55,761 nt of DNA from Omnitrophica WOR_2 bacterium RIFCSPHIGHO2_02_FULL_45_21 (GTDB taxonomy: Bacteria; Omnitrophota; Gorgyraeia; Gygaellales; UBA12090), in assembly GCA_001805575.1 (NCBI GenBank), contig MHGN01000054.1:1-55761 (forward strand), written 5' to 3'. Positions within the stretch are counted from its first letter, which is position 1. Each line of letters opens with the position of its first letter. This document shows positions 2,062-37,712 of the stretch, piece after piece. Position numbers and translations under genes: made by a program. The notes beneath the pieces were generated by a model, which saw only the letters and a list, made by a program, of their open reading frames with translations, did not search any database and was not told where the DNA came from.

Positions 2062-3599
2062 TGAATGTACCGTTTCTTCTTATGGCTGCGGCTAGCGGAA
2101 GCCGCACCATTGCCCTCTGGCTTATGCCGGAAATCAAAGATATGGCCGAAGATCCTTGGGAGCGAGCGGATGAAGAATGCCATATCCTCAAAGCTTGTTA
2201 TAGATATTAAGCGGTTAAATATAAACTCAGGATTTAAGGCGATGCCGTAAAGCGACTGCACAAGTTTCATTATCGTATCCACGGCGATAGGGCTTGTCAT
2301 TACCGGCTCCTTCATATCAAAAGCGCGCCAATCCTGGGTTTTTAGCCAACCGTTCACTTTACATTCCTCAAATAAAGGCGAACCCGGATAGGGGATTACC
2401 ACTGTTGCCTGCATTGTGTAGGCATAACCTTTTCTGAGCAGCCACTTTCCCAATTTTAAGGTATTCAGCGCTTCTTGATAAGTCTCCCAGGGATAGCCGA
2501 ACATAATGGTAATATGAGGATAGAGCCCGCATCTGCGCGCTAATTTGCAGGAATCAATGATATTCTCCACCTTTACATCTTTATTTATCCTATTCAGGGT
2601 ATTTTGATTTGCCGATTCTATACCGAATAATAACAGGCGAAAGCCCGCTTTTTTCATTAGTTTATAATCCTCTTCAAGACAAGCTCCAAAACGCATATTA
2701 CAGTCAAGGTTAATTTTACGGTTATAGCCGCGTTCAAGCATACCCTGACAAAAATCCCTTAACCACTCGCCGGCCTGGAATGTGCCCGAGTCATCCATAA
2801 TTTCCCTCACGCTATAATCTTCAATCAGATGACCTATCTCATCAAGCACATTCTCTACCGAGCGGCTCCTGAAGCTGGTATACATTGTCGGCCAAGAGCA
2901 GAAGGTACATTTTGCCCACCAGCAGTCGCGGCTGGACATAATATAAGTGCCGGGGGTATTCTTATAATTACCGTTTTCATAAGCATAAAGCTCCCATTTA
3001 GTCAAATTGCGGTCAATAAACGGCAGGGTATTTAAATTATGGTTAAGCTGGAATTTACCGGTATTTTTGGTTTGGCCGTTTTCGCGGTAGTAGATGCCCG
3101 GCTCTAATTTAGCGGATAGCGGATAAAGCGGAATGGCGGATAGTTTTGATTCTTTAATTGTATTGCATAAATTAAGCAAAAGAAAGTCATAATCGCCGCC
3201 GGTGAGCACAAAATCAACCTGGCTGTTTTGAAAAGATTCTTCCGGCAGGGCAGTAACATGGTCACCAAACAATATACACCTGACACCTGACACCTGACAC
3301 CTGAGACTATCAATTATCTTCCAGTGTTCTTTGATCACCGGGGTCTTGCTTTCAAAGACAATTAGATCCGGCTTTTCATCTGCGACAAAATTATAAAATC
3401 TTTCCAGGCTCCAGCCTTCGGCAATACAATCATTCCAGAGGACATCATAACCTGCTTGTTTTAAAAGAGTTGCGGCTGTCGCAGGAACTACCGGATAGAT
3501 GTATGTCGGCTTATTAAAATACTGGAACTGACGATTTTGGGATAAAAGAGGGACACCCTTGGAAGTATCTAACGGTGGATATGAAATTACAACCTTCAT
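2046..3599 (-). CDS. B12-binding-domain radical SAM protein (class B rSAM)
   Basis: The N-terminal Rossmann-like B12-domain pattern (PDLIVFESKTP...ILFGDHVTALPE) is followed by the cluster motif SRDCWWAKCTFCSW and a TIM-barrel-like region (LLLFGIESANQ). Confidence 0.8.
   Translation of the reverse strand: MKVVISYPPLDTSKGVPLLSQNRQFQYFNKPTYIYPVVPATAATLLKQAGYDVLWNDCIAEGWSLERFYNFVADEKPDLIVFESKTPVIKEHWKIIDSLRCQVSGVRCILFGDHVTALPEESFQNSQVDFVLTGGDYDFLLLNLCNTIKESKLSAIPLYPLSAKLEPGIYYRENGQTKNTGKFQLNHNLNTLPFIDRNLTKWELYAYENGNYKNTPGTYIMSSRDCWWAKCTFCSWPTMYTSFRSRSVENVLDEIGHLIEDYSVREIMDDSGTFQAGEWLRDFCQGMLERGYNRKINLDCNMRFGACLEEDYKLMKKAGFRLLLFGIESANQNTLNRINKDVKVENIIDSCKLARRCGLYPHITIMFGYPWETYQEALNTLKLGKWLLRKGYAYTMQATVVIPYPGSPLFEECKVNGWLKTQDWRAFDMKEPVMTSPIAVDTIMKLVQSLYGIALNPEFIFNRLISITSFEDMAFFIRSLPRIFGHIFDFRHKPEGNGAASASRSHKKKRYIQCSGN
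3276..3303 (-). repeat. tandem heptamer array (CAGGTGT)x4 on the sense strand, inside the rSAM CDS
   Basis: The plus strand reads acacctg four times without interruption. It is translated as RCQVSGVRC. Confidence 0.95.
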
Positions 3600-4546
3600 T
3601 CTTCTTTTAGCTTCGGGGATAACAGCCCTTTTATGAAATACAAACCATATATAAGGTGACTTATTATTATACCCCGGAAGACAAAAAAGGTCAAACGAAA
3701 GTCCTTGCTAATGCTTGAGATAAAGGCAAGCGCGAGGTATAGGGCAACAGCCGAAATATAGAGGAGTTTAAACGCGGGATTTAAAAAAGAAAGGAGGAAC
3801 CCGATAATCAGTCCGAATACTAACAGTGAAGGCAGGAAATAAACAAATTTAAGCGAGGTCTGGGGAAATCTTTTGACAAAATAACCCCTGTGCAGCGCGT
3901 AGTTGGCAATCTGCCGCAGGTGTCCGATAAAAAGGCTGCGGCGATGATGATAAACCAAAACCTCGGGGTCATAAATAATTTTCTTTTTTCGGTTCTTTAT
4001 GATTCTTAAACATAAAAAGGTGTCTTCTCCGGGCCAAAATTTGGTATTAAAGCCGCCCAGCTCCCGGATTACTGTTTTTCTAATCAGGAAGTTACAGGAA
4101 GGAAAATCATCAACGTATCTTTTTCTTCTTGGCTGATAGCGATAGACGAACTGCCCGCTCATAAGCCACGAGCTGTAGACCAAACCGCTTGCCTTCTGAT
4201 TAATGTTGTCTGAATCAGCCGTTACCGCGGGGCCTCCTACAGCGTCTATTTCATTATCTTCAAAATGCCTTAACGCCTTAGTCAGCCAATCTTTAGCCGG
4301 ATAGGTATCGTGATCAAGAAATGCCAGAATCTCACCTTGTGCCTGGGATATGCCGATGTCCCTTTTTTGCGGAGGCGTTAGTTCACCCGTAGGAATGGCT
4401 CTTGTTCTCGGGCAATTTAAGGTTAGCTCGCTATCCGGCAAGACTAATATTTCAAAATCAACGTAATCTAAGCGAAGGCAATATGCGATACATTCCCTTA
4501 AGTAAGGATTATCCCCTTTTACCGCGACGATAATCGAAACGGTCAT
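3596..4546 (-). CDS. family 2 glycosyltransferase with C-terminal TM segments
   Basis: MTVSIIVAVKGDNPYL...FLDHDTY (DxD-like) followed by a hydrophobic C-terminus. The start is moved from 4666 to the internal ATG that gives the canonical GT2 N-terminus. Confidence 0.75.
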   Translation of the reverse strand: MTVSIIVAVKGDNPYLRECIAYCLRLDYVDFEILVLPDSELTLNCPRTRAIPTGELTPPQKRDIGISQAQGEILAFLDHDTYPAKDWLTKALRHFEDNEIDAVGGPAVTADSDNINQKASGLVYSSWLMSGQFVYRYQPRRKRYVDDFPSCNFLIRKTVIRELGGFNTKFWPGEDTFLCLRIIKNRKKKIIYDPEVLVYHHRRSLFIGHLRQIANYALHRGYFVKRFPQTSLKFVYFLPSLLVFGLIIGFLLSFLNPAFKLLYISAVALYLALAFISSISKDFRLTFFVFRGIIISHLIYGLYFIKGLLSPKLKEE

Positions 4547-5270
4547 AGTATTTAAGGATATATGTCCTATACCAGACTGCCATGGTATCCCTCCAGGTAG
4601 TCCATATCGCCTCCAGCCCGACCCTGCCGTAACGTTTGGAGTTAAGCACAATCGGCGCCTCGGCAATCTTATAACCTAACCTGTGCACGTTAACTAAAAT
4701 CTCTAAGTCATACCCATAGGCCTTTACCAAGATCCTGGGAAAAACCTTCTGCAGGACTTCATATTTAAACAATTTTAAGCCGGTCTGTGTATCCCTGATC
4801 GGCAGCCCGAATAACAGTTTGATCAGGAAAAAATACACCCTGCTGACTATTCTTCTGTCAAAAGGATAATATAACCGCGAATTGGGATGGAGTTTTGAGC
4901 CGATAACTACATCCGCCTCGTCAAGCCGCATAATATCAAAGAGGGTCTGCACCTGGGCCGGGTGAAGCTCCATATCGGCATCCAAAAATACAATATAATC
5001 TCCCGTCGCTAGCCGGAAGCCTACCTTAAGCGCCCTACCTTTGCCGCGATTATGCTTGATTTGTTTAACGATTATGTTGGAATGCCCTTCTGCGGACTTT
5101 AAGGCATTGTTATAGGTATCATCTTTACTGCCGTCGTCAACGACGATGAGCTCATACCTACATCCGAATTCCTCAAAAACCCTGATTGTCTCAGATAAAC
5201 TGGCAGCGATCATATTTCCTTCGTTGTAAGCAGGAATAATGACCGATATTTGGCCTTTGATGTATTTCAT
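4509..5270 (-). CDS. family 2 glycosyltransferase (polyprenol-phosphate glycosyltransferase / Dpm1-like)
   Basis: ISVIIPAYNEG, VVDDGSKDDT and FLDADME motifs. The start MKYIKG lies directly after the flippase stop. Confidence 0.8.
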   Translation of the reverse strand: MKYIKGQISVIIPAYNEGNMIAASLSETIRVFEEFGCRYELIVVDDGSKDDTYNNALKSAEGHSNIIVKQIKHNRGKGRALKVGFRLATGDYIVFLDADMELHPAQVQTLFDIMRLDEADVVIGSKLHPNSRLYYPFDRRIVSRVYFFLIKLLFGLPIRDTQTGLKLFKYEVLQKVFPRILVKAYGYDLEILVNVHRLGYKIAEAPIVLNSKRYGRVGLEAIWTTWRDTMAVWYRTYILKYYDRFDYRRGKRG

Positions 5271-5271
5271 T

Positions 5272-6540: not shown

Positions 6541-6625
6541 AGTGCGTAATGCTCTCCTTACTAACCGCGGGGGTTTGAGGAAAGGTTATAAATAAGAATT
6601 GGCGAGTGAGTTTTGGTAAGCTAAT

Positions 6626-7792: not shown

Positions 7793-7793
7793 A

Positions 7794-9347: not shown

Positions 9348-9359
9348 TCTCCTTAATGA

Positions 9360-9448
9360 GCCCCGCCAACGGCGGGGCGAATTAATCCCGAAGCGTGCGA
9401 AGTAAATTTCGCCCCGCCCTGCCTACCGGTAACGCAGGCAGGGCGGGG
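9360..9448 (-). promoter_or_regulatory. GC-rich structured plsC-rpsA spacer with mutually exclusive hairpins
   Basis: A perfect 13-bp stem pairs 9412-9424 with 9436-9448. An 8-bp stem pairs 9360-9367 with 9371-9378. A competing 8-bp pairing joins 9374-9381 to 9408-9415. Confidence 0.45.
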
Positions 9449-9468
9449 TATTTCAATCTGCTATTATC

Positions 9469-12689: not shown

Positions 12690-12710
12690 CTTAATTTACC
12701 CAAGGTTTGT

Positions 12711-13991: not shown

Positions 13992-14023
13992 ACCTTGTTA
14001 ACCTCGCAGGTTTAGAAGGTTAA

Positions 14024-24715: not shown

Positions 24716-25123
24716 CTAACAAGCAGCCTGGCTCATTACTGCTCCGGTAACTACCGTGAAATCCCTGGTACCGGTTGTGCCGCAATCTGCCGGAACAGCT
24801 GTACAGGAATAAGCTGTCGCCGACAAGGTACCGCACTCAAAGTCATAACCGGCCGGGTCTGTAGTAGTATAATCCTCATTTAGATATGCTGGGGTGGCGC
24901 CGGTTAAGTCGGTCATAGCCGTGGGGTAATTTCCGTTATTGGCTGAAGCAAAAGATTCACAGCCAGTGGCGATTGTTTTTAAAGTCGCCTGCGCATTCGC
25001 CTCGTTAGCATTTACTCTTGCGCGTAGAAGGTTAGGTATAGCTATAGCAGCCAGTAATGCAATAATTGCAACCACGATCATAATTTCCACTAAGGTGAAA
25101 CCTTTTTTGTTTTTAATACGCAT
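24716..25123 (-). CDS. pilA: major type IV pilin
   Basis: MRIKNKKGFTLVEIMIVVAIIALLAAIAIPNL class III signal, with AAAGGAGG seven nt upstream. The upstream extension to 25186 in the track covers promoter-like sequence. Confidence 0.85.
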   Translation of the reverse strand: MRIKNKKGFTLVEIMIVVAIIALLAAIAIPNLLRARVNANEANAQATLKTIATGCESFASANNGNYPTAMTDLTGATPAYLNEDYTTTDPAGYDFECGTLSATAYSCTAVPADCGTTGTRDFTVVTGAVMSQAAC

Positions 25124-25157
25124 TTTTTCCTCCTTTATGCTTTTTAGGCATATGTAT

Positions 25158-25186
25158 ATAGTAACGGTTAACTTTTGCTTTGTCAA
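25158..25186 (-). promoter_or_regulatory. sigma70-like hexamers TTGACA-17-TACTAT between the leader terminator and pilA
   Basis: Hexamers read on the minus strand. They may be a second promoter or a chance match. Confidence 0.3.
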
Positions 25187-25216: not shown

Positions 25217-25245
25217 TGGAAATGAGGATTACTCCTCTACCCTTT

Positions 25246-25322
25246 GGCAGCCTGGCGGTCCTCTTCTAGAGGATCCATAGCTTTGCGCCCCCTGATTACT
25301 CAAGGTTTACCTTTATCAGTGG
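25246..25322 (-). ncRNA. candidate c-di-GMP-I (GEMM-I) riboswitch aptamer
   Basis: The minus-strand RNA reads AAAGGUAAA-CCUUGA-GUAA-UCAGGG-GGCGCAAAGC-UAUGG...CCGCCAGG-CUGCC. This parallels the V. cholerae Vc2 layout as I recall it: GGCAAA-CCAUUC-GAAA-GAGUGG-GACGCAAAGC. It has a 6-bp stem capped by a GNRA loop, the CGCAAAGC core, a UAUGG receptor-like strand, and GGUA/UGCC closing pairs. Confidence 0.55.
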
Positions 25323-25342
25323 TTCTTTCTACTCTTAGAGAA

Positions 25343-25370: not shown

Positions 25371-25372
25371 GC

Positions 25373-25411
25373 CGCTGATAGAAAGCGCTGATAGAAAGCG
25401 CTGATAGAAAA
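25373..25411. repeat. three tandem 13-bp repeats (cgctgatagaaag) abutting the -35 element
   Basis: The copies at 25373-25385 and 25386-25398 are identical. The copy at 25399-25411 has one mismatch. Confidence 0.95.
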
Positions 25412-25416
25412 GAGAG

Positions 25417-26229
25417 CTAATCAGGAATGTGTTTATCAGCGAAATAATCAGCCACCTTCGCAAAATCAGACAATGCTAATTCTTCGGCTCTTATTTTCTG
25501 TTTTAAAGCGATTGCTTTAAGACAATCGGCGATTTTAACTTGAGGGAATAATCTGGCTAAGCTATTTTTTAAGAGCTTGCGGCGCTGATTAAATGCTAAA
25601 CGGATAAGCTTAAAGAAGAACGTTTCGTTCTTTACCTTGACTTTTGGTTTAGGCAGCATTTTTAACTCTACAAAACAAGAATCAACCTTCGGCCTTGGCC
25701 AAAAAGAACTACCTTTAATTGAAAAAAGTATTTTCGGATGAGTGTAAAACTGCGCAAAACAACTAAGGGCTCCGTAACTTTTATTTCCCGGGCCAGCCGT
25801 CAAACGCAGCGCCAATTCCTTTTGCAAAGTAAGATAGATAACCTCTATAGATTGATTATAATCTAAGAGGTAAGCGATAATCGGCGTAGAGATATAGTAA
25901 GGAATATTCGCTATTACCCTAATCCTCCCCGAACCTTGGCAACCTATGAGGTTAACAAGGTTAGTTTTAAGGATGTCTTTGTTGACTAACTCAAAATTAC
26001 TAGATAGCGAAAATTTAGAGGTTAATAATTCACAAAGCTCTTTATCAACCTCAACAGCAATCACCCTTTTAGCTACTTTAAGTAAATGCTGGGTTAGCTC
26101 TCCCCTGCCTGAGCCGATTTCTAAAATTATATCGGTTTTTTTGAGCTTACAGGCCTGGACTATTTTCTCCTGGATGTTCTTATCGGTAAGGAAATTCTGC
26201 CCTAAGCTCTTTTTAGGTTTTTGGTGCAT
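25417..26229 (-). CDS. rsmA: 16S rRNA (adenine1518/1519-N6)-dimethyltransferase
   Basis: LGQNFL, the SAM site EIGSGRGELT, and NIPYYISTPI. Confidence 0.9.
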   Translation of the reverse strand: MHQKPKKSLGQNFLTDKNIQEKIVQACKLKKTDIILEIGSGRGELTQHLLKVAKRVIAVEVDKELCELLTSKFSLSSNFELVNKDILKTNLVNLIGCQGSGRIRVIANIPYYISTPIIAYLLDYNQSIEVIYLTLQKELALRLTAGPGNKSYGALSCFAQFYTHPKILFSIKGSSFWPRPKVDSCFVELKMLPKPKVKVKNETFFFKLIRLAFNQRRKLLKNSLARLFPQVKIADCLKAIALKQKIRAEELALSDFAKVADYFADKHIPD

Positions 26230-27161
26230 AAGACGGCGGCCTGGATAGCCCGTATCATAGAGGCGGGGTCAGCCTGATTTTTTCCGGCAATATCAAAGGC
26301 GGTCCCGTGCCCGGGGGAGGTGCGCACAAAAGGCAGGCCCAGGGTAATATTCACTACTTCCTGAAATCCGCTTAATTTAAGAGGAATAAGCCCCTGGTCA
26401 TGATACATACAGACTATACAATCATAATTTCCGGCTTTTGCTTTCTGAAAGATAGTATCTGCAGGATATGGCCCTTTAACCTTAATCCCTAATCTCTCTG
26501 CCATTGCCATTGCCGGAATTATCAATTTTCTTTCTTCGCTGCCCATAACACCGCTATCCGAAGCATGCGGATTCAAGCCGCAGATAGAAAGTTTTGGCTT
26601 CTTAATGCCAAAGAGTGATTTTAGCCCTAAGGCGGTTGTAGAAATAACCTTGGATATTTTTTCTGCGCTTAGCCCTTTGGCAACGTCTTTTAAGGGTATA
26701 TGTCTAGTGACCAAAACCACTCTTAATTTCTTATTAAACAGCATCATCACTGCATCTCTGACCTGGAATGTCCGGGCGATATATTCGGTCTGTCCGCTAA
26801 AATGATACCCTAATAGGCTTACCGCCTTCTTATTTAGCGGAGCAGTAACCAAACAATCTATCTTATGGGATTTAATCAATTCCAGCCCTTTCTGCAGATA
26901 TTCCATCGCCGCCTTACCATATTCTGGCCTAACTTTTCCAAATCTAAATCCTTTTTGAGGCACATTCCGTAGGTCAATAACCACAAAATCATGATACTTT
27001 GACACTTTGACACTTTGACACTTCTCAAACACCCGCCTATCCCCAATTACGGTAAAATCTGCTGACTTAGAAAGTCCGGGGGTTCCCAGCGCCTTAAGAA
27101 TAACTTCGGCCCCAATCCCCGAAGGATCCCCCATAGTTATTGCACATCTAACCTTAGTCAT
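26202..27161 (-). CDS. pdxA: 4-hydroxythreonine-4-phosphate dehydrogenase
   Basis: ITMGDPSGIG, GLNPHA, MYHDQGLIPLK and TSPGHGTAFDIAG motifs. Confidence 0.9.
   Translation of the reverse strand: MTKVRCAITMGDPSGIGAEVILKALGTPGLSKSADFTVIGDRRVFEKCQSVKVSKYHDFVVIDLRNVPQKGFRFGKVRPEYGKAAMEYLQKGLELIKSHKIDCLVTAPLNKKAVSLLGYHFSGQTEYIARTFQVRDAVMMLFNKKLRVVLVTRHIPLKDVAKGLSAEKISKVISTTALGLKSLFGIKKPKLSICGLNPHASDSGVMGSEERKLIIPAMAMAERLGIKVKGPYPADTIFQKAKAGNYDCIVCMYHDQGLIPLKLSGFQEVVNITLGLPFVRTSPGHGTAFDIAGKNQADPASMIRAIQAAVLCTKNLKRA
26996..27023 (-). repeat. tandem octamer array (GTCAAAGT) x about 3.5 inside the pdxA CDS
   Basis: The plus strand reads actttgac three times and then actt. It is translated as KCQSVKVSKY. 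Confidence 0.95.
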
Positions 27162-27174
27162 AGAGCCGATGCCA

Positions 27175-30080: not shown

Positions 30081-30143
30081 CTTACTTTCCCGCAGGGCTG
30101 ATTATTCTTGAGGGCATAAAAATGATATCGGGTTAGCTAAATT

Positions 30144-30223
30144 AGATCCTTCGGCGCTTCCAGATATTGTAGAAACGAGCGCCGAAGGATCAAGGAAAAT
30201 CAGCCCTTGGGGCTGATTTTCCT
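30144..30223 (-). terminator. two adjacent perfect 14-bp-stem hairpins at the secDF-mfd junction
   Basis: 30191-30204 pairs with 30210-30223 and spans the secDF stop codon. 30144-30157 pairs with 30177-30190. Confidence 0.6.
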
Positions 30224-32395
30224 TGACCAGGCTAAGACTAAAGGCGAGGCAATATAAACCGTAGAATATATCCCGGAGATAAAACCAACTAACAAGCAAA
30301 AGGCAAAATTATGCAGCACCTCCCCCCCCCAGAAAAATAGGGCAATAACCATAAGCAAGGTGACCCCGCTGGTCAATATGGTCCGGGATAAGGTTTGATT
30401 GACGCTCAGGTTTATGATTTCCGCTAAGGACATTTTACGCATAGAGCGCATATTCTCGCGCACGCGGTCATAAATAACAATGGTATCATTGATAGAATAA
30501 CCGGCAATGGTCAGGATGGCGGTAACAATGAGCAGGTCTATCTGTTTTCCGCTTAAAGCCAGAAACCCCAGGGTAACCAGAATATCGTGGAATAACGCCA
30601 GCACCCCGGCAGCGGCAAAATTAAAATGTTTAAAGCGAAATGCCACATAGACTAATATGCCGCTAAGTGAGAGGGCGAGCGCCGAGAGCGCCTTCTGGCG
30701 TAATTCCTTTCCTACTACCGGGCCAACGTTTTCAATACGCAAGAGGTCATATGGATTATCTTTGAAATGAGCTTTGAACTTCTCTGAGGCCAACTCCGCA
30801 GTATCCTGGCTGCTGCGCAGCATAACAATCCTGGGGTCTTCCTTGAACTGCTGGATGGCCGCCTCGTTAATCCCCGACTCTTTCAGCAGGAGGCGTATTT
30901 GCTCTACCGGCACCGGCCGCTGGAAGCGGTATTCCTGAATCTGGCCGCCGGAGAAGTCAATGCCGTAGGCATTCTTACCCTGTTTCAAAAAGATAAACAT
31001 ACCCGCTCCGATCACCAGTACGGAAAGGGCATAAAAAAACCTGCGCTTAGCGATAAAATCAAATTTAGTGGCGCCGATTAACTGAAGCATGCTCAAGTTC
31101 TTAAAATTACGATTTAAAAACAGCAGTTCAAAAATAGTCCGGGTAACAAATATGGCGGTAAACATGCTCGCCAGCAAACCCACGCTTAAAGTGAGGGCAA
31201 ATCCGCGGATCGGCCCGCTTCCAAATTGAAACAAAAAGAAGGCGGCAATCAGGGTAGTAACGTTAGAATCCAATATCGCGCTAAAGGCCTTGGTATAACC
31301 GCTGCTTATGGCGATAGAAAGAGGCCGGCCTAATTTTAATTCTTCGCGGATACGCTCGTTAATCAACACGTTGGCATCCACTGCCATTCCTAAGGTAAGC
31401 ACAATACCGGCAATGCCCGGCAGGGTAAGGGTAGCATTAAAATAAGCCATAAACCCCAGGATAAGGACAAAATTCAGGATCAAGGCTATGCTGGCAACAA
31501 CGCCTGATAGCAAATAGTAAATACACATAAATCCAAAAACCAGCGCGCTCCCGATCAGGCAGGCCTTAATTCCGCTGCGCACTGAATCCGCGCCTAAGAG
31601 GGGGCCGATGGTGCGCTCTTCTTCTATCACCATTGGAGCCGGCAAAGCTCCTGAGCGCAAGACAATGCTTATGTCGCTTGCCTCCTGAGAGCTAAAACCG
31701 CCCCGGCGGGTAATCTCTGCCTCTCCGGAATCTATTCCTTGATTAATCACCGGCGCTAACTTAATCATACCGTCAAGGACTATGGCCAGCCTTTCATTGA
31801 TCTGGCTTGCGGTAATCTCCGCGAAGGTTTTTCTGCCTTTTTCATTAAACTCTAACTTAACTGAAGGCAGGCCATATTGGTCAACTCCCACCTGGGCATC
31901 CTTGATCGCCTCGCCGGTCAGGGAAGCGCTTTTACTCAAAAGCAATGGCTTTCCTTCCTCATCATTGACATATTCATAACCCTCTGGCGGGTTTCCCGCC
32001 TGCCCCGCCTCAGAAAGAGCCTTGGCCTGGGAATTAACTAATTTAAACTCAAGCAAAGCGGTCTTGCCAATCAATTCTTTTGCCCGCTTTCGGTCAGTAA
32101 CCCCGGGAAGCTGGACCAAAATATGCTCTCCTCCTTGTCGCTGGATGAGCGGTTCGGCCACCCCAAATTCATTCACCCGGTTGCTGATAATCTCCAGTGC
32201 CCGTTCAACAGCGCCATTTTTAGATTTCTCATCCATCTGGGAAAGATCAACCCGAAGCACCAGATGCATACCGCCTTTTAAATCCAACCCTAAGTTTATC
32301 TTCTTATCTAAGGGATAGGCAAGCCATAGCGAAAGCCCGGCTAATCCCAAAATAAGAAGCGCCTTATACAACAGATTTTTTCTTGTTGCCATCAA
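30200..32395 (-). CDS. secDF: protein translocase subunit SecDF (fused)
   Basis: 731 aa with a SecD periplasmic head and two six-TM modules (LGLDLKGG, GPLLGADSV, GYSINDTIVIYDR). Confidence 0.9.
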   Translation of the reverse strand: MMATRKNLLYKALLILGLAGLSLWLAYPLDKKINLGLDLKGGMHLVLRVDLSQMDEKSKNGAVERALEIISNRVNEFGVAEPLIQRQGGEHILVQLPGVTDRKRAKELIGKTALLEFKLVNSQAKALSEAGQAGNPPEGYEYVNDEEGKPLLLSKSASLTGEAIKDAQVGVDQYGLPSVKLEFNEKGRKTFAEITASQINERLAIVLDGMIKLAPVINQGIDSGEAEITRRGGFSSQEASDISIVLRSGALPAPMVIEEERTIGPLLGADSVRSGIKACLIGSALVFGFMCIYYLLSGVVASIALILNFVLILGFMAYFNATLTLPGIAGIVLTLGMAVDANVLINERIREELKLGRPLSIAISSGYTKAFSAILDSNVTTLIAAFFLFQFGSGPIRGFALTLSVGLLASMFTAIFVTRTIFELLFLNRNFKNLSMLQLIGATKFDFIAKRRFFYALSVLVIGAGMFIFLKQGKNAYGIDFSGGQIQEYRFQRPVPVEQIRLLLKESGINEAAIQQFKEDPRIVMLRSSQDTAELASEKFKAHFKDNPYDLLRIENVGPVVGKELRQKALSALALSLSGILVYVAFRFKHFNFAAAGVLALFHDILVTLGFLALSGKQIDLLIVTAILTIAGYSINDTIVIYDRVRENMRSMRKMSLAEIINLSVNQTLSRTILTSGVTLLMVIALFFWGGEVLHNFAFCLLVGFISGIYSTVYIASPLVLAWSRKISPKG

Positions 32396-32465
32396 AAATT
32401 TCCTCCACTATTATGATGCAACCCCACGGACTAAAGCCCGCGGTACCCTGCGCAGGGGGATGACT

Positions 32466-32744
32466 TCAGGCTATCTTTTCAATTCGTGAAATAGCGCTGC
32501 GGTCAATTTCAACCTTGACATTATCGTCAATACGCACAGTTATGGTTTTATCCTTGAGATTAAGCACAACCCCATGCATTCCGCCCGTAGTAACCACCGC
32601 ATCGTTTTTCTTGATATCTTTAAGCATTGCCAGGCGCTCTTTTTCCTGCTTCTGCTGGGGGCGGATTAACAAAAAATAAAAAATTATGAAAATTAAAAAT
32701 ATCGGCATAAGCTGTAACAACGGCGGAACTGTCTGTGGCTGCAT
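32466..32744 (-). CDS. yajC: preprotein translocase subunit YajC
   Basis: 92 aa with a single TM helix, RPQQK and VVTTGGMHG motifs, immediately upstream of secDF. Confidence 0.85.
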   Translation of the reverse strand: MQPQTVPPLLQLMPIFLIFIIFYFLLIRPQQKQEKERLAMLKDIKKNDAVVTTGGMHGVVLNLKDKTITVRIDDNVKVEIDRSAISRIEKIA

Positions 32745-32822
32745 TTTTATCTCCTTCTTTAAATAGCGAAGCTAACCGGGCCCGCGCCTTGTTTAGGAGG
32801 CGCGGCCTTGAGAAAGCGCCGG

Positions 32823-33074
32823 CTACTTACCCTTATTTATTTTTTTAATCATACTCTTTATCGTCGGCGAGATTACCGCGCCCTTTTGCCTCCAGTACTC
32901 ATAACGGCCGAGGTCAATTTTAAAATTGTCCTCTTTTTTGGCCGGCTCGTAGCTGCCGATATCCTCAATAACCCTGCCATCGCGGTTCTTTTGCTCATTG
33001 ATTACCCCGATTCTAAAATAAAATCTCTTTTTTGCAAGTTTACCTATCTTGCGCATCCTGACTGCAACTGCCAT
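32823..33074 (-). CDS. rpsP: 30S ribosomal protein S16
   Basis: MAVAVRMRKIGKLAKKRFYFRIGV...GSYEP. Confidence 0.95.
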   Translation of the reverse strand: MAVAVRMRKIGKLAKKRFYFRIGVINEQKNRDGRVIEDIGSYEPAKKEDNFKIDLGRYEYWRQKGAVISPTIKSMIKKINKGK

Positions 33075-33086
33075 TTTATAACCTCC

Positions 33087-34577
33087 TCATTTGACCGCTT
33101 CTAACTGCGCCTTTGCCTTATTCAGTATCTCCTGATACTCTCTTTCCGGTTTTGAGCCGCTAACGATGCCGGCCCCGGCCTGGATATAGGCAATGTTCTT
33201 CTTTATTACTATGGTGCGAATGGTAATACAGGTATCTAAATTACCGGAAAAGCCAAAATAGCCCACTGCCCCTGCGTATGGCCCGCGCCGGAAACTCTCC
33301 AACTGATCAATAATCTCCATCGCCCTTACCTTTGGGCTTCCGCTAACCGTTCCTGCAGGGAAGGCCGCCTGCAAAAGATCATAAATATCTTTTCCTTTGA
33401 TTAACCTTCCCTGTATCTCGCTGACAATATGCATCACGTGCGAATAACGTTCGATGCGCATAAATTCGCTCAGCCTGACCGAGCCGTACTCGCAGACCCT
33501 GCCCAGGTCGTTTCTTCCCAAATCAACCAGCATAATATGCTCGGCTCTTTCCTTCGCATCTTTCAACAATTCGTTCTCTAAGCGCAAATCCTCGAGCCCA
33601 GAAGCGCTTCTTGGCCTGGTTCCGGCAATGGGCCTTGTGGTAACCATTCCCTTCTCACAGCGCACGAGCATCTCGGGGGACGAGCCGATGAGATAGAGGT
33701 CTTTAAATTTTAGATAAAACATATACGCTGAGGGGTTTAGATTCCTTAGGTTTCGATAGATAGTAAATGGCTTATGGCGCATCGGCTTTGAGAAAATCTG
33801 CGAGAGCACCACCTGGATAATGTCGCCCTTACGAATATACGTTTTGGCTTTTTCTACCATGCGCATAAAATCTTTTTTCGCGGTCAAGGCCTTTACCCGA
33901 AGAGCTTTTTTGGGGCCTGCCCCGCCCTGCTCATTAGCTATCGGTTCTCTAAGTTTTTTGACGATTGACTCAATGCGGGCGATTGACTTCTTATAAGCCG
34001 CTCTTATGGTTTTAGGATTTTTATCAGTTAAAAAAGCGCAGGCAATAATCTTCAGGCTGTGCTTAAGATGGTCAAAGATCACAAAGGTGTCGCTGAGTAA
34101 AAAAAACGCATCCGGCATAGCGCAAGGAGCAGGATTCTTATCCGGGATATTTTCAAAGGAGCGCACCAGGTCATAGCCGAGGTAACCCACCAGCCCTCCG
34201 CAGAATAGCGGAGCGCCATCAACGTCTATGAATTTATAAACTGACATAAATTCTTTAAGCCTGGAAAGGGGATTACCCATTATAATTTCTTTTCTATGCT
34301 TAAATTTACCTGAACTATCTTTGCTGAGAATTTCTAACTGCGCGCCATTTAGCTTGAGGATAGCGGAGGGCGCGCACCCGATAAAGGAAAAGCGGGCAAT
34401 TTTTTCCTCCCCCTCTACCGACTCAAGCAGATAGCCGTATTCGCTTTCTGCGGCAAGCTTCAGGTATGCCGAAACCGGGGTTTCTAAGTCCCCGGGGATT
34501 TCGCGGTAAATTGGAATAAGGTTTCCCTTTTTAGACAGGTTTATAGCTTCTTTTTCTGAAGGTAAATACATATTCAA
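33087..34577 (-). CDS. trpE: anthranilate synthase component I (TrpE/PabB family)
   Basis: Chorismate-binding core [25 protein letters not shown] and [10 protein letters not shown]. TrpE and PabB cannot be told apart by eye. Confidence 0.75.
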
Positions 34578-34924
34578 TCAGCCCCGCCGCTTTCGGAGTG
34601 AATTTGACGATAGAAACAAGACCTATTACCTGTATGACAGGCCGCGCCAATTTGCCGGACTTTAATCAAAAGTGTATCGGCATCACAGTCATAATAAATT
34701 TCCTTGATAAATTGGAAGTGGCCTGAGCTTTCACCCTTTACCCAGTATTGCTTACGTGAGCGCGACCAGAAGCAGGCCTTCTTAAGCTTGAGGGTGCGCT
34801 TTAATGACTGCTTATTCATATAGGCAAGCATTAAAACCTCGCCGGTCTTATAATCCTGGATTATCGCCGGGATAAGCCCGGCAGCATCATATTGTAAGTT
34901 CAAGATTTCGCGTTTTCTTAACAT
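34574..34924 (-). CDS. hisI: phosphoribosyl-AMP cyclohydrolase
   Basis: [26 protein letters not shown] and CDADTLL motifs. There is no HisE domain. Confidence 0.9.
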
Positions 34925-35700
34925 CTTATGGCAACCCCTCTTTTCTTCAAGTAACCCTTAAGCTCTTTAACGGTTAATTCCTGATAATGAAAAAGCGAGG
35001 CCGCTAATGCCGCATCCGCACGGCCTTGAGTCAATACCGTATAAAAATCCTCTTTCCTGCCTGCGCCGCCGGAAGCAATCAGCGGAATATTTACGGAACT
35101 GGTTACTGCCTTAGTCAGCTCTAAATCATACCCGCATTTTGTGCCATCATAATCCATGCTGGTCAAAAGAATTTCACCCGCGCCTAATTTCTCTACCTGC
35201 CGCGCCCATTTAACCGCGTCTAAACCCGTCGGCGTCCTGCCGCCGTTTATATAAACCTCCCAAAAAGTTTTACCTGCGGCCTGCGGCCTGCGGCCTGCGG
35301 CCTTTTTAGCATCAATCGCCGCTACAATACACTGACTCCCAAACTTATCTGAGGCCTTTTTAATCAAGGCGGGATTCTTTAGCGCAGCGGTATTGATCGA
35401 GACCTTATCCGCACCGGCATTAAGCAGGGCCCTGATGTCCGATAAGTCCCTTACCCCTCCGCCGACGGTAAGAGGCATAAAGACATTCTGGGCAGTGCGC
35501 CTGACGACGTCTAAAATAATTTTTCTATTCTCGGCGCTTGCGGTTATATCTAAAAATACAAGCTCATCCGCCTCCTCGTCTTCGTATCTTTTAGAAACCT
35601 CAACCGGATCCCCTGCGTCCTTAAGCTTTAAAAACTTCACCCCTTTTACCACCCGGCCATCCTTAACATCAAGACAGGGAATTATTCTTTTGCTAAGCAT
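34918..35700 (-). CDS. hisF: imidazole glycerol phosphate synthase cyclase subunit
   Basis: [25 protein letters not shown] and [15 protein letters not shown] motifs. The start is moved to the ATG directly after the hisA stop. Confidence 0.95.
35273..35302 (-). repeat. tandem heptamer array (CCGCAGG)x4 inside the hisF CDS
   Basis: The plus strand reads cctgcgg four times and then cc. It is translated as [10 protein letters not shown]. Confidence 0.95.
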
Positions 35701-35701
35701 T

Positions 35702-36421
35702 CTACTTTGCCATTGCAATAGCTTCGGGCAGGGAAAACATTTTTTCATAGAGCGCTTTGCCGATAATCACCCCTTTTAAGTTAGGGCTGCTGAGCGCGAT
35801 AAGTCCTTTAATATCTTCTAACGAACAAACGCCTCCGGAGACAATAACATCAATCGAGGTTGCCTGAAGCATTCTTTTAAGCGCCGGAAAATTTAAACCC
35901 TTGAGGCTGCCGTCACGGGTTATATCGGTATAAATGATAGTTTTTAAACACATTTTTTCTAGCCTCGCTATTAAAGGGGTAAACTCAATTTTAACTGACC
36001 TCTTCCAACCTTCTATGCCTATACCACTCGCGGAGACATCTATTGCCAGGGCGATTTTGCGGCCGAATTCTTTTACTGCTTTGGCTAAGAAGCCGATATC
36101 TTCTATGGCTTTCGTGCCCAGCACAACCCTGCTGGCGCCAAGAGCAATGAACTTTTTTATCATCGCCAAATCCCTGATGCCGCCTGAAACCTCAAGCGGA
36201 ATCTTGCTCACGGCAATGATTTTTTTGATCAGCTTCAGGTTTTTCGCTTTACCGGTCATAGCGGCGTCTAAATCAACTAAGTGCATAAACTTTGCTCCCT
36301 GGCTTTGCCAGTTGAGGGCAACTGATACAGGGTCGGCAGAATAAACCCTTTTATTAAACCTGCCCCTGGTGTATCTGACCACCTCGCCATCTTTTAAATC
36401 AATCGCGGGAATGATAAGCAT
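35702..36421 (-). CDS. hisA: ProFAR isomerase
   Basis: [15 protein letters not shown], the (beta/alpha)8 pattern, and its position in the his operon. Confidence 0.9.
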
Positions 36422-36422
36422 T

Positions 36423-37046
36423 TTAGAGCTTTAGAAAATTTTCCAGAAGCCTTAAGCCCAGACGCTGGCTCTTCTCAGGATGAAACTGACAGGCAAATAA
36501 ATTGTCTCTACGGATGCCGGAGGTAAACTCAATACCGTAATCAGTTGTGAGGGCAATCAAACTCTTATCCTCGGGAACTACATAATAAGAATGGCAAAAA
36601 TAAAAATACGAATTATCGGGAATGGCCTTGAGCATAAAACATTCCTGCCTCCTGCCTCCTGGGTCCTGCGTCTTAAGTTTTACCTGATTCCAGCCGATAT
36701 GCGGAACCTTCAGCTGATGGGAAAACCGCTTAACCCTGCCTTTAAAAATCCCTAAACCCCCGACCTTGCCGCCTTCTTCGCTTTCAGTAAAAAGAAGCTG
36801 CAGGCCAAGGCAAATACCCAAGAATGGTTTGATGAATATATTTTTTTTAATTACCTCAATCAATCTCAATTTCCTTAACTCACGCATCGCCTCTTGCATT
36901 GCGCCGACACCGGGCAAGACGAGCTTATTGGCCTTAGAAATCAATGCCGGGCTTGAGGTAACTTTGACGTTCTTTGCCCCGGCTGCCTCTAAGGCCTTTG
37001 CCACGCTGCGTAAATTCCCCATCCCGTAATCAATAATCGCAATCAC
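36423..37046 (-). CDS. hisH: imidazole glycerol phosphate synthase glutaminase subunit
   Basis: GTG start followed by IAIIDYGMGNL, LPGVGA, GICLGLQLL (catalytic Cys) and FHPEKS. Confidence 0.9.
   Translation of the reverse strand: MIAIIDYGMGNLRSVAKALEAAGAKNVKVTSSPALISKANKLVLPGVGAMQEAMRELRKLRLIEVIKKNIFIKPFLGICLGLQLLFTESEEGGKVGGLGIFKGRVKRFSHQLKVPHIGWNQVKLKTQDPGGRRQECFMLKAIPDNSYFYFCHSYYVVPEDKSLIALTTDYGIEFTSGIRRDNLFACQFHPEKSQRLGLRLLENFLKL
36643..36670 (-). repeat. imperfect tandem heptamer array (GGCAGGA-like)x4 inside the hisH CDS
   Basis: The plus strand reads tcctgcc tcctgcc tcctggg tcctgcg. It is translated as QDPGGRRQE. Confidence 0.9.
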
Positions 37047-37093
37047 AGTAAAAAGTGTCAGGGTATCATAGTATCAAGTAAAGAAATAAAAAT

Positions 37094-37111
37094 ACTTTGA
37101 CACTTTGACAC
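37094..37111. repeat. intergenic copy (2.25 units) of the same octamer seen in pdxA
   Basis: actttgac actttgac ac lies in the hisB-hisH spacer. The inverted partner aaagtgtca is at 37052-37060. Confidence 0.9.
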
Positions 37112-37115
37112 AGAT

Positions 37116-37712
37116 CTATAGAATGCCCTTGGTTGATAGAATACCCTTGATACGCGGATCGATGGCCACCGCATCTTTCAAGGCCCTGCCGAAGGCCTTA
37201 AAAACTGCCTCAATGATATGGTGGGAATCCTCACCATAGACTATTTCCGCATGCAGGGTTATTCCGGCATTACTGGCCACGGCCTGCAAAAACTGCTTCA
37301 AATAATTCAGGCTGTATTCTTTACCTTCAGCCATGAACTCTGAACTATGAACTCTGAACTTTAAACAAGGCCTGTTGCATATATCTAAACTAACTTCGGC
37401 TAACGCCTCGTCCATCGGCAGAGAGGAAAAACCAAACCGCCTGATGCCCGATTTATCTGTTAATGCTTTTTTTATTGCCTGCCCCAGGCAAATCCCGATA
37501 TCCTCATTGGTATGATGCATGTCAACTTCAACATCGCCGGAAGCTTTGAGTTTCAAATCAAATAAGCCATGCCTGGCAAACAAAGTCAGCATGTGATTTA
37601 AGAAATTTATCGGCGTTTTAATATCGGACTTACCGCTACCGTCTAAATTTATCCCTACGGTAATATCGGTCTCAGTAGTTTTGCGTTTAATATTTGCTTT
37701 TCTTGCTTTCAT
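37116..37712 (-). CDS. hisB: imidazoleglycerol-phosphate dehydratase
   Basis: RKTTETDI, MHHTNEDIGICLG and DSHHIIEAVFKAFGRAL motifs. Confidence 0.95.
   Translation of the reverse strand: MKARKANIKRKTTETDITVGINLDGSGKSDIKTPINFLNHMLTLFARHGLFDLKLKASGDVEVDMHHTNEDIGICLGQAIKKALTDKSGIRRFGFSSLPMDEALAEVSLDICNRPCLKFRVHSSEFMAEGKEYSLNYLKQFLQAVASNAGITLHAEIVYGEDSHHIIEAVFKAFGRALKDAVAIDPRIKGILSTKGIL
37334..37361 (-). repeat. imperfect tandem heptamer array (AGTTCAN)x4 inside the hisB CDS
   Basis: The plus strand reads tgaactc tgaacta tgaactc tgaactt. It is translated as KFRVHSSEFM. Confidence 0.9.

What the first reader, a model, noticed from the sequence alone, without database searches (positions are those of the whole stretch)
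3276..37361. Window-wide family of ~28-bp tandem heptamer/octamer arrays inside conserved enzyme genes
Five conserved genes each contain an uninterrupted short-period array of the same total length:
- (CAGGTGT)4 in the B12-rSAM
- (GTCAAAGT)3.5 in pdxA
- (CCGCAGG)4 in hisF
- four GGCAGGA-like units in hisH
- four AGTTCAN units in hisB

A period of 7 is not divisible by 3, so successive units are read in all three frames. Only copy numbers of 1, 4, 7 and so on keep the gene in frame. An expansion from 1 to 4 copies adds 21 nt, or 7 aa. From my memory of the E. coli and T. maritima HisH and HisF sequences, the arrays coincide with loops about 8 aa longer than in those orthologs. In hisB the array replaces a variable loop of similar length.

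The pdxA octamer reappears in the hisB-hisH spacer 10 kb away with a different copy number. The units also fall into related groups (GTGTCA.., GCAGG..), which argues for a dispersed, active repeat process rather than five coincidences.

The nearest precedents I know are the cyanobacterial STRR heptamer repeats, which are mostly intergenic, and contingency-locus microsatellites. Neither is described as in-frame-constrained arrays in his and pdx genes. Any change of one unit would knock out the host gene.
Basis: partly seen in the sequence, partly recalled or inferred. Interest (0 to 1): 0.8.

Follow-up and report, generated by a model that had tools for sequence, protein, structure and literature searches.

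The report
In-frame heptamer arrays in enzyme genes
This Omnitrophota genome and its relatives carry many short DNA stutters, about four copies of a 7-base unit, sitting in frame inside surface loops of ordinary enzymes; similar repeats are known in other bacteria, but here they rewrite the same loops again and again.

Summary
The window is a contig of Omnitrophica WOR_2 bacterium RIFCSPHIGHO2_02_FULL_45_21. It holds six period-7 arrays and one period-8 array of 27-34 nt inside six genes: B12-rSAM (two), pdxA, hisF, hisH, hisB and alaS. An eighth array (octamer) lies in the hisB-hisH spacer. Shuffles predict about 0.005 perfect period-7 arrays; three are seen.

Independent assemblies 98.4-99.9% identical keep every compared array, so these are neither artefacts nor strain-level switches.

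In related Omnitrophota the same loops of HisF, HisH, HisB, AlaRS, PdxA and the rSAM carry different heptamer arrays. HisF proteins 97-100% identical elsewhere differ completely in this loop. One pair shows a clean change from 1.43 to 4.43 copies (+21 nt). Arrays at distant loci in one genome share units, flaws and flanks. In relatives, 20-30-nt palindromes sit nested within arrays.

Best reading: lineage-wide heptanucleotide microsatellites that expand, contract and copy between loci. Selection leaves only in-frame, stop-free arrays in tolerant loops.

Precedents exist: heptanucleotide long simple-sequence repeats (LSSRs), cyanobacterial STRR repeats, and Geobacter metallireducens four-heptamer elements found within genes. 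I rate it a new variant of a known kind, of moderate interest.

The parts
3276..3304 (-). (CAGGTGT)4.1 perfect heptamer array in loop 1 of the B12-binding radical SAM gene (ORF 2046-3599). It encodes LRCQVSGVRC.
   Evidence: TRF score 58, 100% matches. Translation. Orthologs carry other heptamer-derived peptides at this loop.
3110..3143 (-). Degenerate CTATCCG array (about 4.4 copies, with an indel) in loop 2 of the same rSAM gene. It encodes LSAIPLYPLSAK.
   Evidence: TRF. It matches the alaS array at 31 of 33 positions plus a 3-nt indel, including a shared flawed unit and the AAA flank.
26992..27023 (-). (AAGTGTCA)4.0 octamer array in pdxA (ORF 26202-27161). It encodes KCQSVKVSKYH.
   Evidence: TRF score 57. 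PdxA orthologs carry the heptamer version (KCQVSGVRCQ), other arrays, or a nested palindrome at the same loop.
35273..35303 (-). (GGCCGCA)4.4 perfect heptamer array in hisF (ORF 34918-35748). It encodes [10 protein letters not shown] at the tip of a beta-hairpin after the conserved AIDAK strand.
   Evidence: TRF score 62. The loop is 9 aa longer than in PDB 4evz. In the AlphaFold model it is the loop 134-146 between two strands, with pLDDT below 50 at 139-141. L019 has the orthologous array.
36643..36669 (-). GGCAGGA-like heptamer array (3.9 copies) in hisH (ORF 36423-37046). It encodes TQDPGGRRQE.
   Evidence: TRF. The loop is 8 aa longer than in PDB 4gud. Every relative has a different heptamer array at this loop.
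37094..37111 (-). (AAGTGTCA)2.2 octamer array in the hisB-hisH spacer. It is a copy of the pdxA array together with its 3' flank.
   Evidence: TRF. Direct-repeat family D3. Local alignment score 41 against a maximum of 33 in 20,000 random window pairs.
37333..37360 (-). (AGTTCAG/AGTTCAT)x4 heptamer array in hisB (ORF 37116-37712). It encodes KFRVHSSEFM.
   Evidence: TRF. Five species have a loop of the same length, each with its own unit in register.
40760..40789 (-). Degenerate CTATCCG array (4.3 copies) in alaS (ORF 38950-41565). It encodes NYPLFRIRYPL.
   Evidence: TRF. Orthologous loops carry CTATCCG with a nested palindrome (L019), CTATCGA (L002) or AACTATC (L001).

Best explanation
These are heptanucleotide microsatellites of a lineage-wide kind. 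In this branch of Omnitrophota, short units (mostly 7 nt, sometimes 8) are repeatedly amplified in tandem from a seed of one unit plus a 2-3-nt microhomology. Arrays later contract and re-expand, which keeps them internally uniform while the unit drifts (concerted evolution). They also act as short-homology donors and recipients for one another, so arrays at different loci in one genome come to share unit, copy number, flaws and flanks. Selection then filters the output. Inside genes, only events whose net length is a multiple of three survive (+3 units: 1 to 4 copies). The unit must also lack stop codons in the reading frames used, and the site must be a tolerant surface loop. The result is the uniform arrays of about 28-32 nt in hisF, hisH, hisB, pdxA, alaS and the rSAM.

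Shown: the arrays, their excess, their loop location, the 1-to-4 gain, turnover at orthologous sites, and sharing between loci.

Inferred: slippage or template switching as the molecular step, and ectopic copying as the cause of sharing between loci. The preference for period 7 is not explained.
For: Excess of period 7:
- 3 perfect arrays against 0.005 expected.
- Period 7 accounts for 57 non-redundant arrays against 8 of period 8 in related loci, and 83 against at most 17 for any other period overall.
- There are none in 107 kb from six other phyla.

Loop location:
- PDB alignments and the HisF model.

Net +21 nt from a local seed:
- L071 has CGGACGA-CGG. L072 has the same at 4.43 copies. The two are 95% identical at nucleotide level.
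- L003 has GTCAATN 2 to 5 copies and CTATCGA 1 to 4 copies relative to L065.

Turnover:
- The HisF loop ranges from 6 to 34 aa among 113 homologs.
- Pairs 97-100% identical outside the loop have unrelated loops.
- L066 is 96.9% identical to L003 but carries a period-8 array instead.

Concerted evolution:
- The HisB loop has constant length, with units TTCAGAG, TCCACAG, TTTACCG and CTKTCAG in register.
- The HisH unit is AATCAAG in L001 and AATCAAA in L019.

Sharing between loci:
- The two rSAM loops share a 4-mer in 9 of 120 proteins, against 1.5 +/- 1.2 in permutations.
- At DNA level, both loops carry the same unit in L073 and in L074.
- The window's rSAM loop 2 and alaS arrays, and the pdxA and spacer arrays, share flaws and flanks.

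Single-unit steps:
- +7 and -7 nt between L001 and L020 at 99.73% identity.

Stability within the species:
-.
Against: - No out-of-frame intermediate (2 or 3 copies inside a gene) was observed. A one-step gain of three units cannot be told apart from stepwise slippage through a non-functional state.
- Arrays outside ORFs also cluster at 3-5 copies, with a second mode near 8. The Geobacter elements also have four repeats, in intergenic sites too. The size of about 30 nt may therefore be set by the generating process and not only by the reading frame.
- Recurrence of the same unit at distant loci is not expected from purely local slippage. It needs an added copying step for which no machinery was identified.
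- Why period 7 is favoured is unexplained. The idea that 7 nt matches the polymerase footprint (Mrazek 2007, as reported in PMC4679880 and PMC4692102) is a conjecture.
Confidence: 0.6

Rival explanations
1. The arrays are written or moved by a dedicated trans-acting system. One version is a very small mobile element. Another is a templated polymerase that adds about four copies of a genome-specific heptamer. A third treats the arrays as accumulated 7-bp target-site-duplication footprints of the nested mini-palindromes. Under any of these, the size of about 30 nt and the genome-specific families are properties of that system.
For: - The same unit, with the same flaws and flanks, occurs at loci 10-37 kb apart.
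- Both rSAM loops are rewritten together in each lineage.
- Arrays outside ORFs are also about 4 copies, as in Geobacter.
- A 20-21-nt palindrome, CCTGCCTGCCGGCAGGCAGG, is dispersed in L019 (5 copies in 8.8 kb) and L002 (4 copies). It sits inside heptamer arrays in AlaRS and HisF loops, flanked there by 7-nt direct repeats.
- L001 and L020 differ as if the 30-nt hairpin had moved by one unit.
- From memory, Elhai et al. 2008 describe small mobile repeats of 21-27 nt embedded in tandem heptamers in Nostoc.
Against: - A clean +21-nt gain arises from a seed already present at the site.
- Six intergenic copies of the palindrome have no 7-nt flanking duplication. The direct flanks seen inside arrays follow simply from the array's own periodicity.
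- Units at orthologous sites look like drifted versions of one another and not like imports.
- No candidate enzyme was examined, and the window's ORFs were not screened for a transposase or reverse transcriptase.
Confidence: 0.2
2. The arrays are contingency (phase-variation) switches. Gain or loss of one unit turns histidine, pyridoxal phosphate or other pathways off and on in subpopulations.
For: - Units not divisible by three inside genes are the classic design of phase-variable loci.
- Single-unit (+7 and -7 nt) changes do occur between near-identical genomes.
Against: - The hisF, hisH, hisB, alaS and spacer arrays are identical in three independent assemblies at 98.4-99.9% identity. The only indel found in a repeat is an in-frame 9-nt unit in the RecA-family gene.
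- HisF and rSAM cluster members from other samples keep the array peptides, apart from one R-to-S substitution in one HisF member.
- The host genes are cytoplasmic housekeeping enzymes.
- With only about four copies, expected slippage rates are low (general knowledge of microsatellites).
- No out-of-frame allele was seen.
Confidence: 0.05
3. The periodicity serves a function at the sequence level. Either selection favours particular loop peptides, or the arrays are binding sites for a regulator or nucleoid protein that recognises tandem heptamers. The latter was proposed for the Geobacter and Beggiatoa repeats.
For: - Similar peptides recur at the same loop in distant lineages: AGRRPQAA in HisF at 69% identity and CQVSGVRC in a rSAM at 68% identity.
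- The Geobacter authors annotated such elements as putative global regulatory elements.
- In Nostoc, heptamer repeats upstream of recF and recO affect expression.
Against: - Units differ freely between species at the same site. This argues against a sequence-specific binder or a required peptide.
- The same unit occurs in coding and non-coding DNA.
- Perfect nucleotide periodicity is not needed to encode a peptide.
- The HisF loop is predicted to be disordered, and many orthologs lack the insert.
Confidence: 0.07
4. The arrays are assembly or sequencing artefacts, or chance low-complexity matches.
For: Short repeats can be mis-assembled in metagenomes.
Against: - Arrays of 27-34 nt are far shorter than typical short sequencing reads (general knowledge).
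- Identical arrays were recovered in independent assemblies from other samples.
- All arrays keep long conserved genes in frame.
- Shuffles give about 0 expected.
Confidence: 0.01

Closest known systems
Geobacter metallireducens elements of four tandem heptanucleotide repeats (Gmet_H4##; Aklujkar et al. 2009, PMC2700814)
   Same: Both consist of four tandem copies of a 7-nt unit and are dispersed in many copies. [quoted passage not shown] The same genome also has families of four tandem octanucleotide repeats.
   Different: In Geobacter one consensus (GGACCGG) has 49 copies, and the elements were read as regulatory elements. Here many different units each occupy a few loci, and most arrays lie inside conserved enzyme loops. 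The comparative data here show turnover, 1-to-4 gains and concerted evolution. None of these is mentioned in the passages of that paper retrieved here.
Heptanucleotide long simple sequence repeats in prokaryotes (Mrazek, Guo and Shah 2007, as summarised in PMC4679880 and PMC4692102)
   Same: Both are tandem repeats of 5-11-nt units longer than chance, with period 7 the most abundant class, in phylogenetically scattered non-pathogens. Slippage is the proposed mechanism.
   Different: That survey noted that units divisible by three are the ones mostly found in coding regions. Here non-triplet units dominate inside genes. Omnitrophota is not among the rich taxa named in the summary read here.
Cyanobacterial STRR heptamer repeats, and the small dispersed repeats embedded in them (Mazel 1990 and Elhai 2008, both from memory; Elhai is cited in PMC3116915)
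   Same: Both involve tandem heptamers with genome-specific families. In relatives of the window, tiny palindromic elements (20-30 nt) are nested inside heptamer arrays, as reported for Nostoc SDRs.
   Different: STRRs are mostly intergenic and often longer, and belong to a different phylum. The nested palindromes were found in related loci, not in the window's own arrays. I could not read either paper here.
TAACTGA direct repeats of marine Beggiatoaceae (PMC4679880) and GGGAATC repeats of Xanthomonas (PMC4692102)
   Same: Both are heptamer direct repeats of 2-6 copies at many sites in one genome. Indels between close strains come in 7-nt steps.
   Different: Those cases have a single dominant unit, overwhelmingly intergenic and near start codons. 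TAACTGA contains stop codons and so cannot sit inside a gene in the forward orientation.
Rickettsia palindromic elements inserted in frame in protein-coding genes (Ogata 2000, as summarised in PMC10969869)
   Same: In both, selfish-looking repeats are tolerated in frame inside unrelated metabolic genes, in positions compatible with the protein fold.
   Different: RPEs are palindromic elements of about 150 bp belonging to defined families. The window's inserts are tandem arrays of 21-30 nt.
Contingency-locus microsatellites of host-adapted pathogens
   Same: Both have repeat units not divisible by three inside reading frames.
   Different: Contingency loci use units of 1-5 nt (heptanucleotides in a few Haemophilus genes), have many copies and vary between sister cells. 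These arrays have about four copies, sit in housekeeping enzymes and are invariant across strains at 98.4-99.9% identity.

Membership tests
Heptanucleotide long simple sequence repeats (LSSR 5-11 nt, Mrazek 2007) | Tandem iterations of a 5-11-nt unit that are longer than expected by chance in that genome | tested here: met
   3 perfect period-7 arrays against 0.005 in shuffles. The lag-7 scan gives 4-5 hits against 0.3.
Heptanucleotide long simple sequence repeats (LSSR 5-11 nt, Mrazek 2007) | Period 7 is over-represented relative to neighbouring periods | tested here: met
   Window: six arrays of period 7 against one each of periods 6, 8, 9 and 13. All loci: 83 against at most 17. Only period 7 has long perfect runs.
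Geobacter-type four-heptanucleotide-repeat elements (Gmet_H4##) | About four tandem copies of a heptanucleotide | tested here: met
   Copy numbers in the window are 3.9-4.4. The mode in related loci is 27-35 nt.
Geobacter-type four-heptanucleotide-repeat elements (Gmet_H4##) | [quoted passage not shown] | tested here: met
   Two arrays in the rSAM gene, and one octamer array in the hisB-hisH spacer. Non-redundant related loci: 42 period-7 arrays in ORFs and 15 outside.
Geobacter-type four-heptanucleotide-repeat elements (Gmet_H4##) | One consensus unit present in tens of copies per genome | tested here: inconclusive
   Only 55.8 kb of this genome is available. CTATCCG occurs at two loci and the GTGTCA(G/AA) unit at three. 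The other units occur once.
Cyanobacterial STRR | Tandem heptamers belonging to a few genome-wide families | tested here: inconclusive
   Tandem heptamers are present. Sharing of families between loci is significant, but no genome-wide count is possible from one window.
Cyanobacterial STRR | Predominantly intergenic location | tested here: not met
   All six heptamer arrays in the window lie inside conserved genes.
Contingency (phase-variable) loci | Copy number differs between closely related strains or cells and switches the frame | tested here: not met
   No array indel in contigs 99.93%, 99.94% and 98.4% identical to the window. Cluster members keep the hisF and rSAM array peptides. Read-level variation could not be tested.
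Small mobile palindromic insertions (SDR- or RPE-like) | A dispersed, near-identical palindromic element, also inserted in frame in genes | tested here: not met
   This holds for relatives: CCTGCCTGCCGGCAGGCAGG has 5 copies in L019 and 4 in L002, and is 21 nt long when inside AlaRS or HisF loops. No copy lies inside the window's arrays. The window has only a related intergenic palindrome at 9410-9448.

The most novel reading that the evidence does not exclude
A trans-acting, lineage-specific process writes or copies blocks of about 30 nt, made of a genome-specific heptamer, into many sites in one step. Candidate processes are micro-transposition, microhomology-primed templated repair that uses other arrays as donors, or a templated polymerase. 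Enzyme loops would then act as a recorder of its activity. If so, the Omnitrophota loop series would expose the long-unknown mechanism behind STRR-type heptamer repeats across bacteria.
Probability: 0.2. Interest if true: 0.8.

Novelty: new variant of a known kind. Interest (0 to 1): 0.55.

Why it matters
Heptamer tandem repeats have been known in cyanobacteria since 1990 and in many other bacteria since 2007. How they arise and spread is still open.

Here the repeats sit in universally conserved enzymes. Public metagenomes therefore already hold hundreds of aligned variants of the same loops, at every level of divergence. That gives a natural series in which single steps can be read directly:
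- a one-to-four copy gain;
- paired +7 and -7 nt shifts;
- replacement of a whole array;
- copying between loci.

It also shows a cheap route by which enzymes acquire and exchange 7-8-residue surface loops. For annotation and phylogenetics, it is a warning that these loop columns are not homologous residue by residue.

Tried and rejected
- Exact look-up of the 276-aa HisF ORF found nothing. The deposited protein starts at the internal ATG and is 260 aa long.
Near-identical strains came instead from exact-protein look-up of AlaRS.
- The target-site-duplication footprint idea was tested on ten copies of the CCTGCC...GGCAGG palindrome. Only the two copies nested in heptamer arrays have 7-nt direct flanks, and six intergenic copies have none. 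I therefore did not adopt it.
- The (TTTGTCA)~8 arrays in L006, L047 and L037 looked as if they lay upstream of an RNase P-like sequence. Rfam found no such RNA, and the frame is in fact coding.
- A looser lag-7 scan for decayed arrays in the window found nothing further of note.
- Elhai 2008 and Mrazek 2007 could not be read. They are cited through papers that summarise or cite them, or from memory.
- No paper in the held library links Omnitrophota or Omnitrophica with this kind of repeat.
- The 13-mer array at 25373-25410 is treated as a separate feature: its period is different and it lies next to a promoter-like site.

Full report
**1. What is in the window**

Tandem Repeats Finder reports period-7 arrays of 3.9-4.4 copies at 3110-3143, 3276-3304, 35273-35303, 36643-36669, 37334-37360 and 40760-40789. 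It also reports period-8 arrays at 26992-27023 and 37094-37111, and a 13-mer repeated 2.9 times at 25373-25410.

All seven longer 7- or 8-nt arrays lie on the coding (minus) strand of long ORFs and keep them open. The host genes, with NCBI names, are:
- a B12-binding radical SAM gene, with two arrays;
- pdxA;
- hisF;
- hisH;
- hisB;
- alaS.

The contig is from Omnitrophica WOR_2 bacterium RIFCSPHIGHO2_02_FULL_45_21.

**2. More than chance, and not an artefact**

- Perfect period-7 arrays of at least 2.7 copies: 3 observed against 0.005 (base shuffles) and 0 (codon-block shuffles) per window.
- A lag-7 autocorrelation scan gives 4-5 hits. Other lags give 0-2, and shuffles give 0.3.
- Contigs from other samples are 99.93%, 99.94% and 98.4% identical to the window over 14-22 kb. 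They carry identical hisF, hisH, hisB, alaS and spacer arrays.
- The only indel in a repeat is an in-frame 9-nt unit at window 43628, near the 3' end of the RecA-family gene.
- HisF and rSAM proteins of the same 90% clusters, from other assemblies, keep the array peptides, apart from one R-to-S substitution in one HisF member.

The arrays are therefore real and stable within the species.

**3. Where the arrays sit in the proteins**

| Protein | Compared with | Length difference at the array |
|---|---|---|
| HisF | PDB 4evz | +9 aa |
| HisF | array-free Omnitrophota ortholog L007 | +7 aa |
| HisH | PDB 4gud | +8 aa |
| HisB | plant IGPD | +2 aa, in a variable stretch |
| PdxA | solved homologs | none; the region is already variable and shorter |

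An AlphaFold model of HisF (mean pLDDT 87.9) places the array-encoded residues 134-146 between strands 125-133 and 147-151. pLDDT falls below 50 at 139-141, which indicates a floppy hairpin tip.

**4. The phenomenon is lineage-wide**

The closest HisF loci are Omnitrophota MAGs and metagenome contigs.

- Period-7 arrays occur at 1-4 per 10 kb in the window and in L001-L004; L019 and L026 carry three and six in 8.8 and 18 kb.
- None occurs in 107 kb from Clostridium, Desantisbacteria, Endomicrobium, Oscillospiraceae, SAR116 and Chlamydiales loci.
- None occurs in four other Omnitrophota loci.
- Across all fetched loci, period 7 has 83 arrays against at most 17 for any other period from 5 to 15.
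- After removing duplicate loci there are 57 arrays of period 7: 42 inside ORFs and 15 outside. There are 8 of period 8.
- Lengths cluster at 27-35 nt, with a minor mode at 52-59 nt, both in ORFs and outside them.

**5. Orthologous loops are rewritten again and again**

*HisF.* Between AIDAK and WEV, the window and L019 have (GGCCGCA)n. Other relatives differ:
- L022 has GAACTAC and GAACTAA.
- L001 and L020 have AACCAGN split by a 30-nt hairpin.
- L002 has CACAGTC split by a 21-nt palindrome.
- L003 has GTCAATN x5 plus CTATCGA x4.4.

Among 113 homologs this loop ranges from 6 to 34 aa. Many loops are 7-aa periodic.

Pairs 97-100% identical outside the loop have unrelated loops. At DNA level:
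- L064 and L065 are 99.3% identical and differ by 24 nt in the loop.
- L066 is 96.9% identical to L003 but carries (GCTCATTA)x4 instead.

*HisH.* Every species has its own unit:
- GGCAGGA in the window;
- AATCAAG in L001;
- AATCAAA in L019;
- CAGAACT in L002;
- AAGGGTT in L004.

*HisB.* Loop length is constant, but the units differ in register: TTCAGAG, TCCACAG, TTTACCG and CTKTCAG. This is the signature of concerted evolution.

*AlaRS, PdxA and the rSAM loops.* All show the same behaviour. PdxA orthologs carry KCQVSGVRCQ, which is the heptamer GTGTCAG, where the window has the octamer GTGTCAAA. This ties the rSAM heptamer to the pdxA octamer.

**6. Elementary steps that can be read directly**

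- L071 has AAGT-CGGACGA-CGG-TAAA (1.43 copies). L072 is 95% identical and has 4.43 copies, exactly +21 nt.
- L003 equals an L065-like sequence with GTCAATN going from 2 to 5 copies and CTATCGA from 1 to 4, that is +21 and +21 nt.
- L001 and L020 are 99.73% identical over 12 kb. Two of their three indels are +7 and -7 nt on either side of the hairpin in the HisF loop. Two of their 18 substitutions form a compensatory pair in the hairpin stem.

Single-unit steps therefore occur and can be compensated locally. The net change that survives in a gene is a multiple of three units.

**7. Arrays at different loci are not independent**

- In the window, rSAM loop 2 and the alaS loop match at 31 of 33 positions plus a 3-nt indel. 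The match includes a flawed unit and the AAA flank. The local alignment score is 47.
- The pdxA array and the spacer array share their 3' flank. The score is 41.
- The best score in 20,000 random window pairs is 33.
- In 120 rSAM orthologs the two loops share a 4-mer in 9 proteins, against 1.5 +/- 1.2 in permutations, with a maximum of 8 in 2,000.
- At DNA level, L073 has (CTGTCAA)4.3 with the same flanks at both loops. L074 has (CGGACGA)n at both.

A small vocabulary of units (CTATCSN, CGGACGA, GTGTCAG, CACAGTC, AATCAAG) recurs in different genes and genomes. Purely local slippage does not predict this. Some form of copying between arrays is needed. It could be ectopic conversion, template switching or transposition.

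**8. Nested palindromes in relatives**

A 20-nt palindrome, CCTGCCTGCCGGCAGGCAGG, is dispersed in L019 (5 copies in 8.8 kb) and L002 (4 copies). It is 21 nt long when it lies inside AlaRS or HisF loops, where it is nested in heptamer arrays. Matching peptides (CLPAGR, GLSPQGTVP) appear in PdxA and rSAM loops.

Seven-nt direct flanks occur only for the in-array copies. They are therefore not evidence of a target-site duplication.

The window's own arrays contain no such element.

**9. Interpretation**

The best-supported account is a heptanucleotide microsatellite process. Arrays expand, contract and copy between loci, and the output is filtered by reading frame, stop codons and loop tolerance.

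The coding-strand units are stop-free in the frames used. Four of the six core units would introduce stop codons if inverted.

I give this account 0.6. A dedicated trans-acting writer or mover gets 0.2. That view is kept alive by the size of about 30 nt outside genes, by the sharing between loci and by the Geobacter parallel. Phase variation, peptide or binding-site function, and artefact are each unlikely, for the reasons listed under the rival explanations.

**10. What is known**

- According to summaries of Mrazek et al. 2007, heptanucleotide repeats are the most abundant long simple sequence repeat class in most of the genomes surveyed. That work conjectured slippage linked to a 7-nt polymerase footprint.
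- TAACTGA repeats in Beggiatoaceae and GGGAATC repeats in Xanthomonas are mainly intergenic.
- The closest precedent is Geobacter metallireducens. [quoted passage not shown]
- Rickettsia palindromic elements show that in-frame selfish inserts in enzymes are tolerated.
- I found no paper linking Omnitrophota with such repeats.

The kind is therefore known. What is new here:
- the phylum;
- the dominance of sites inside genes;
- the many units per genome;
- the comparative evidence for 1-to-4 gains, concerted evolution and copying between loci.

**Verdict:** new variant of a known kind, interest 0.55.

Noticed in passing
window 25242-25320 (-) and 25373-25410: A c-di-GMP-I-GGC riboswitch (Rfam RF03167, 61.2 bits) lies upstream of ORF 24716-25186. 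Directly upstream of it are three tandem 13-mers (CTTTCTATCAGCG), which abut a TTGAAA-17 nt-TATACT promoter-like site. They look like regulator binding sites, not part of the heptamer family.
   Followed up: partly
window 43614-43642, in ORF 43596-44669 (RecA family): A 26-nt perfect palindrome, also a 9-nt tandem repeat (GCGAAGCCA/GCGAAGGCG), lies near the 3' end of the RecA-family gene. It is the only indel between the window and a 99.93%-identical contig (L067 lacks one 9-nt unit).
   Followed up: partly
L070 1-12643, against window 30281-42864: A Rifle scaffold encodes an AlaRS identical to the window's (about 97% nucleotide identity through hisA). Its hisH and hisF carry the L001/L020-type arrays (88% identity). 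It is either a recombinant genome or an assembly chimera of two co-occurring populations. The BLAST alignment between L070 and the window breaks at the hisF array.
   Followed up: partly
L019 1292, 2210, 5281, 5950, 8713; L002 1460, 4542, 7595, 10101; L044 8019: A dispersed 20-21-nt palindrome, CCTGCCTGCCGGCAGGCAGG. It is 20 nt long between genes (terminator-like positions) and 21 nt long when in frame inside AlaRS and HisF loops. Related peptides appear in PdxA and rSAM loops of other Omnitrophota.
   Followed up: partly
L001 9469-9498 and L020 10419-10448: A 30-nt hairpin element (CCCGCCCYGGC-AAAGCGAAGCGG-GCCRGGG) sits inside the HisF loop. Its stem shows a compensatory C-G to T-A change between genomes 99.73% identical. 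Its position differs by one heptamer.
   Followed up: partly
L006 9297-9352, L052 9292-9348, L047 9301-9352, L038 932-986: (TTTGTCA)~8 arrays are conserved across several loci. They appear to encode the hydrophobic core of an N-terminal signal peptide (for example MVKIQNLNIRHLSFVICLSFVIWVLSLSVC-EAKSIWNG) that ends in a lipobox-like Cys.
   Followed up: partly
window 2046-2110 (rSAM 3' end) and cluster members P0138-P0141: The rSAM C-terminus is mosaic among strains. P0141 is identical to the window protein for about 370 aa and then switches to the P0139 type. The window also has a 14-aa tail insert (PEGNGAASASRSHK...) that two relatives lack.
   Followed up: no
window 37047-37115 (hisB-hisH spacer): About 40 nt downstream of the octamer array GTGTCAAAGTGTCAAAG the spacer holds an inverted partial copy (CTGACACTTTTT), giving hairpin potential. 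In L019 the same spacer instead holds the CCTGCC palindrome, and GTGTCATGTGTCAG lies upstream of hisB.
   Followed up: no
window 9410-9448: A GC-rich intergenic palindrome (CCCCGCCCTGCCT-11 nt-AGGCAGGGCGGGG) resembles the CCTGCC...GGCAGG elements of relatives. It is probably a terminator.
   Followed up: no
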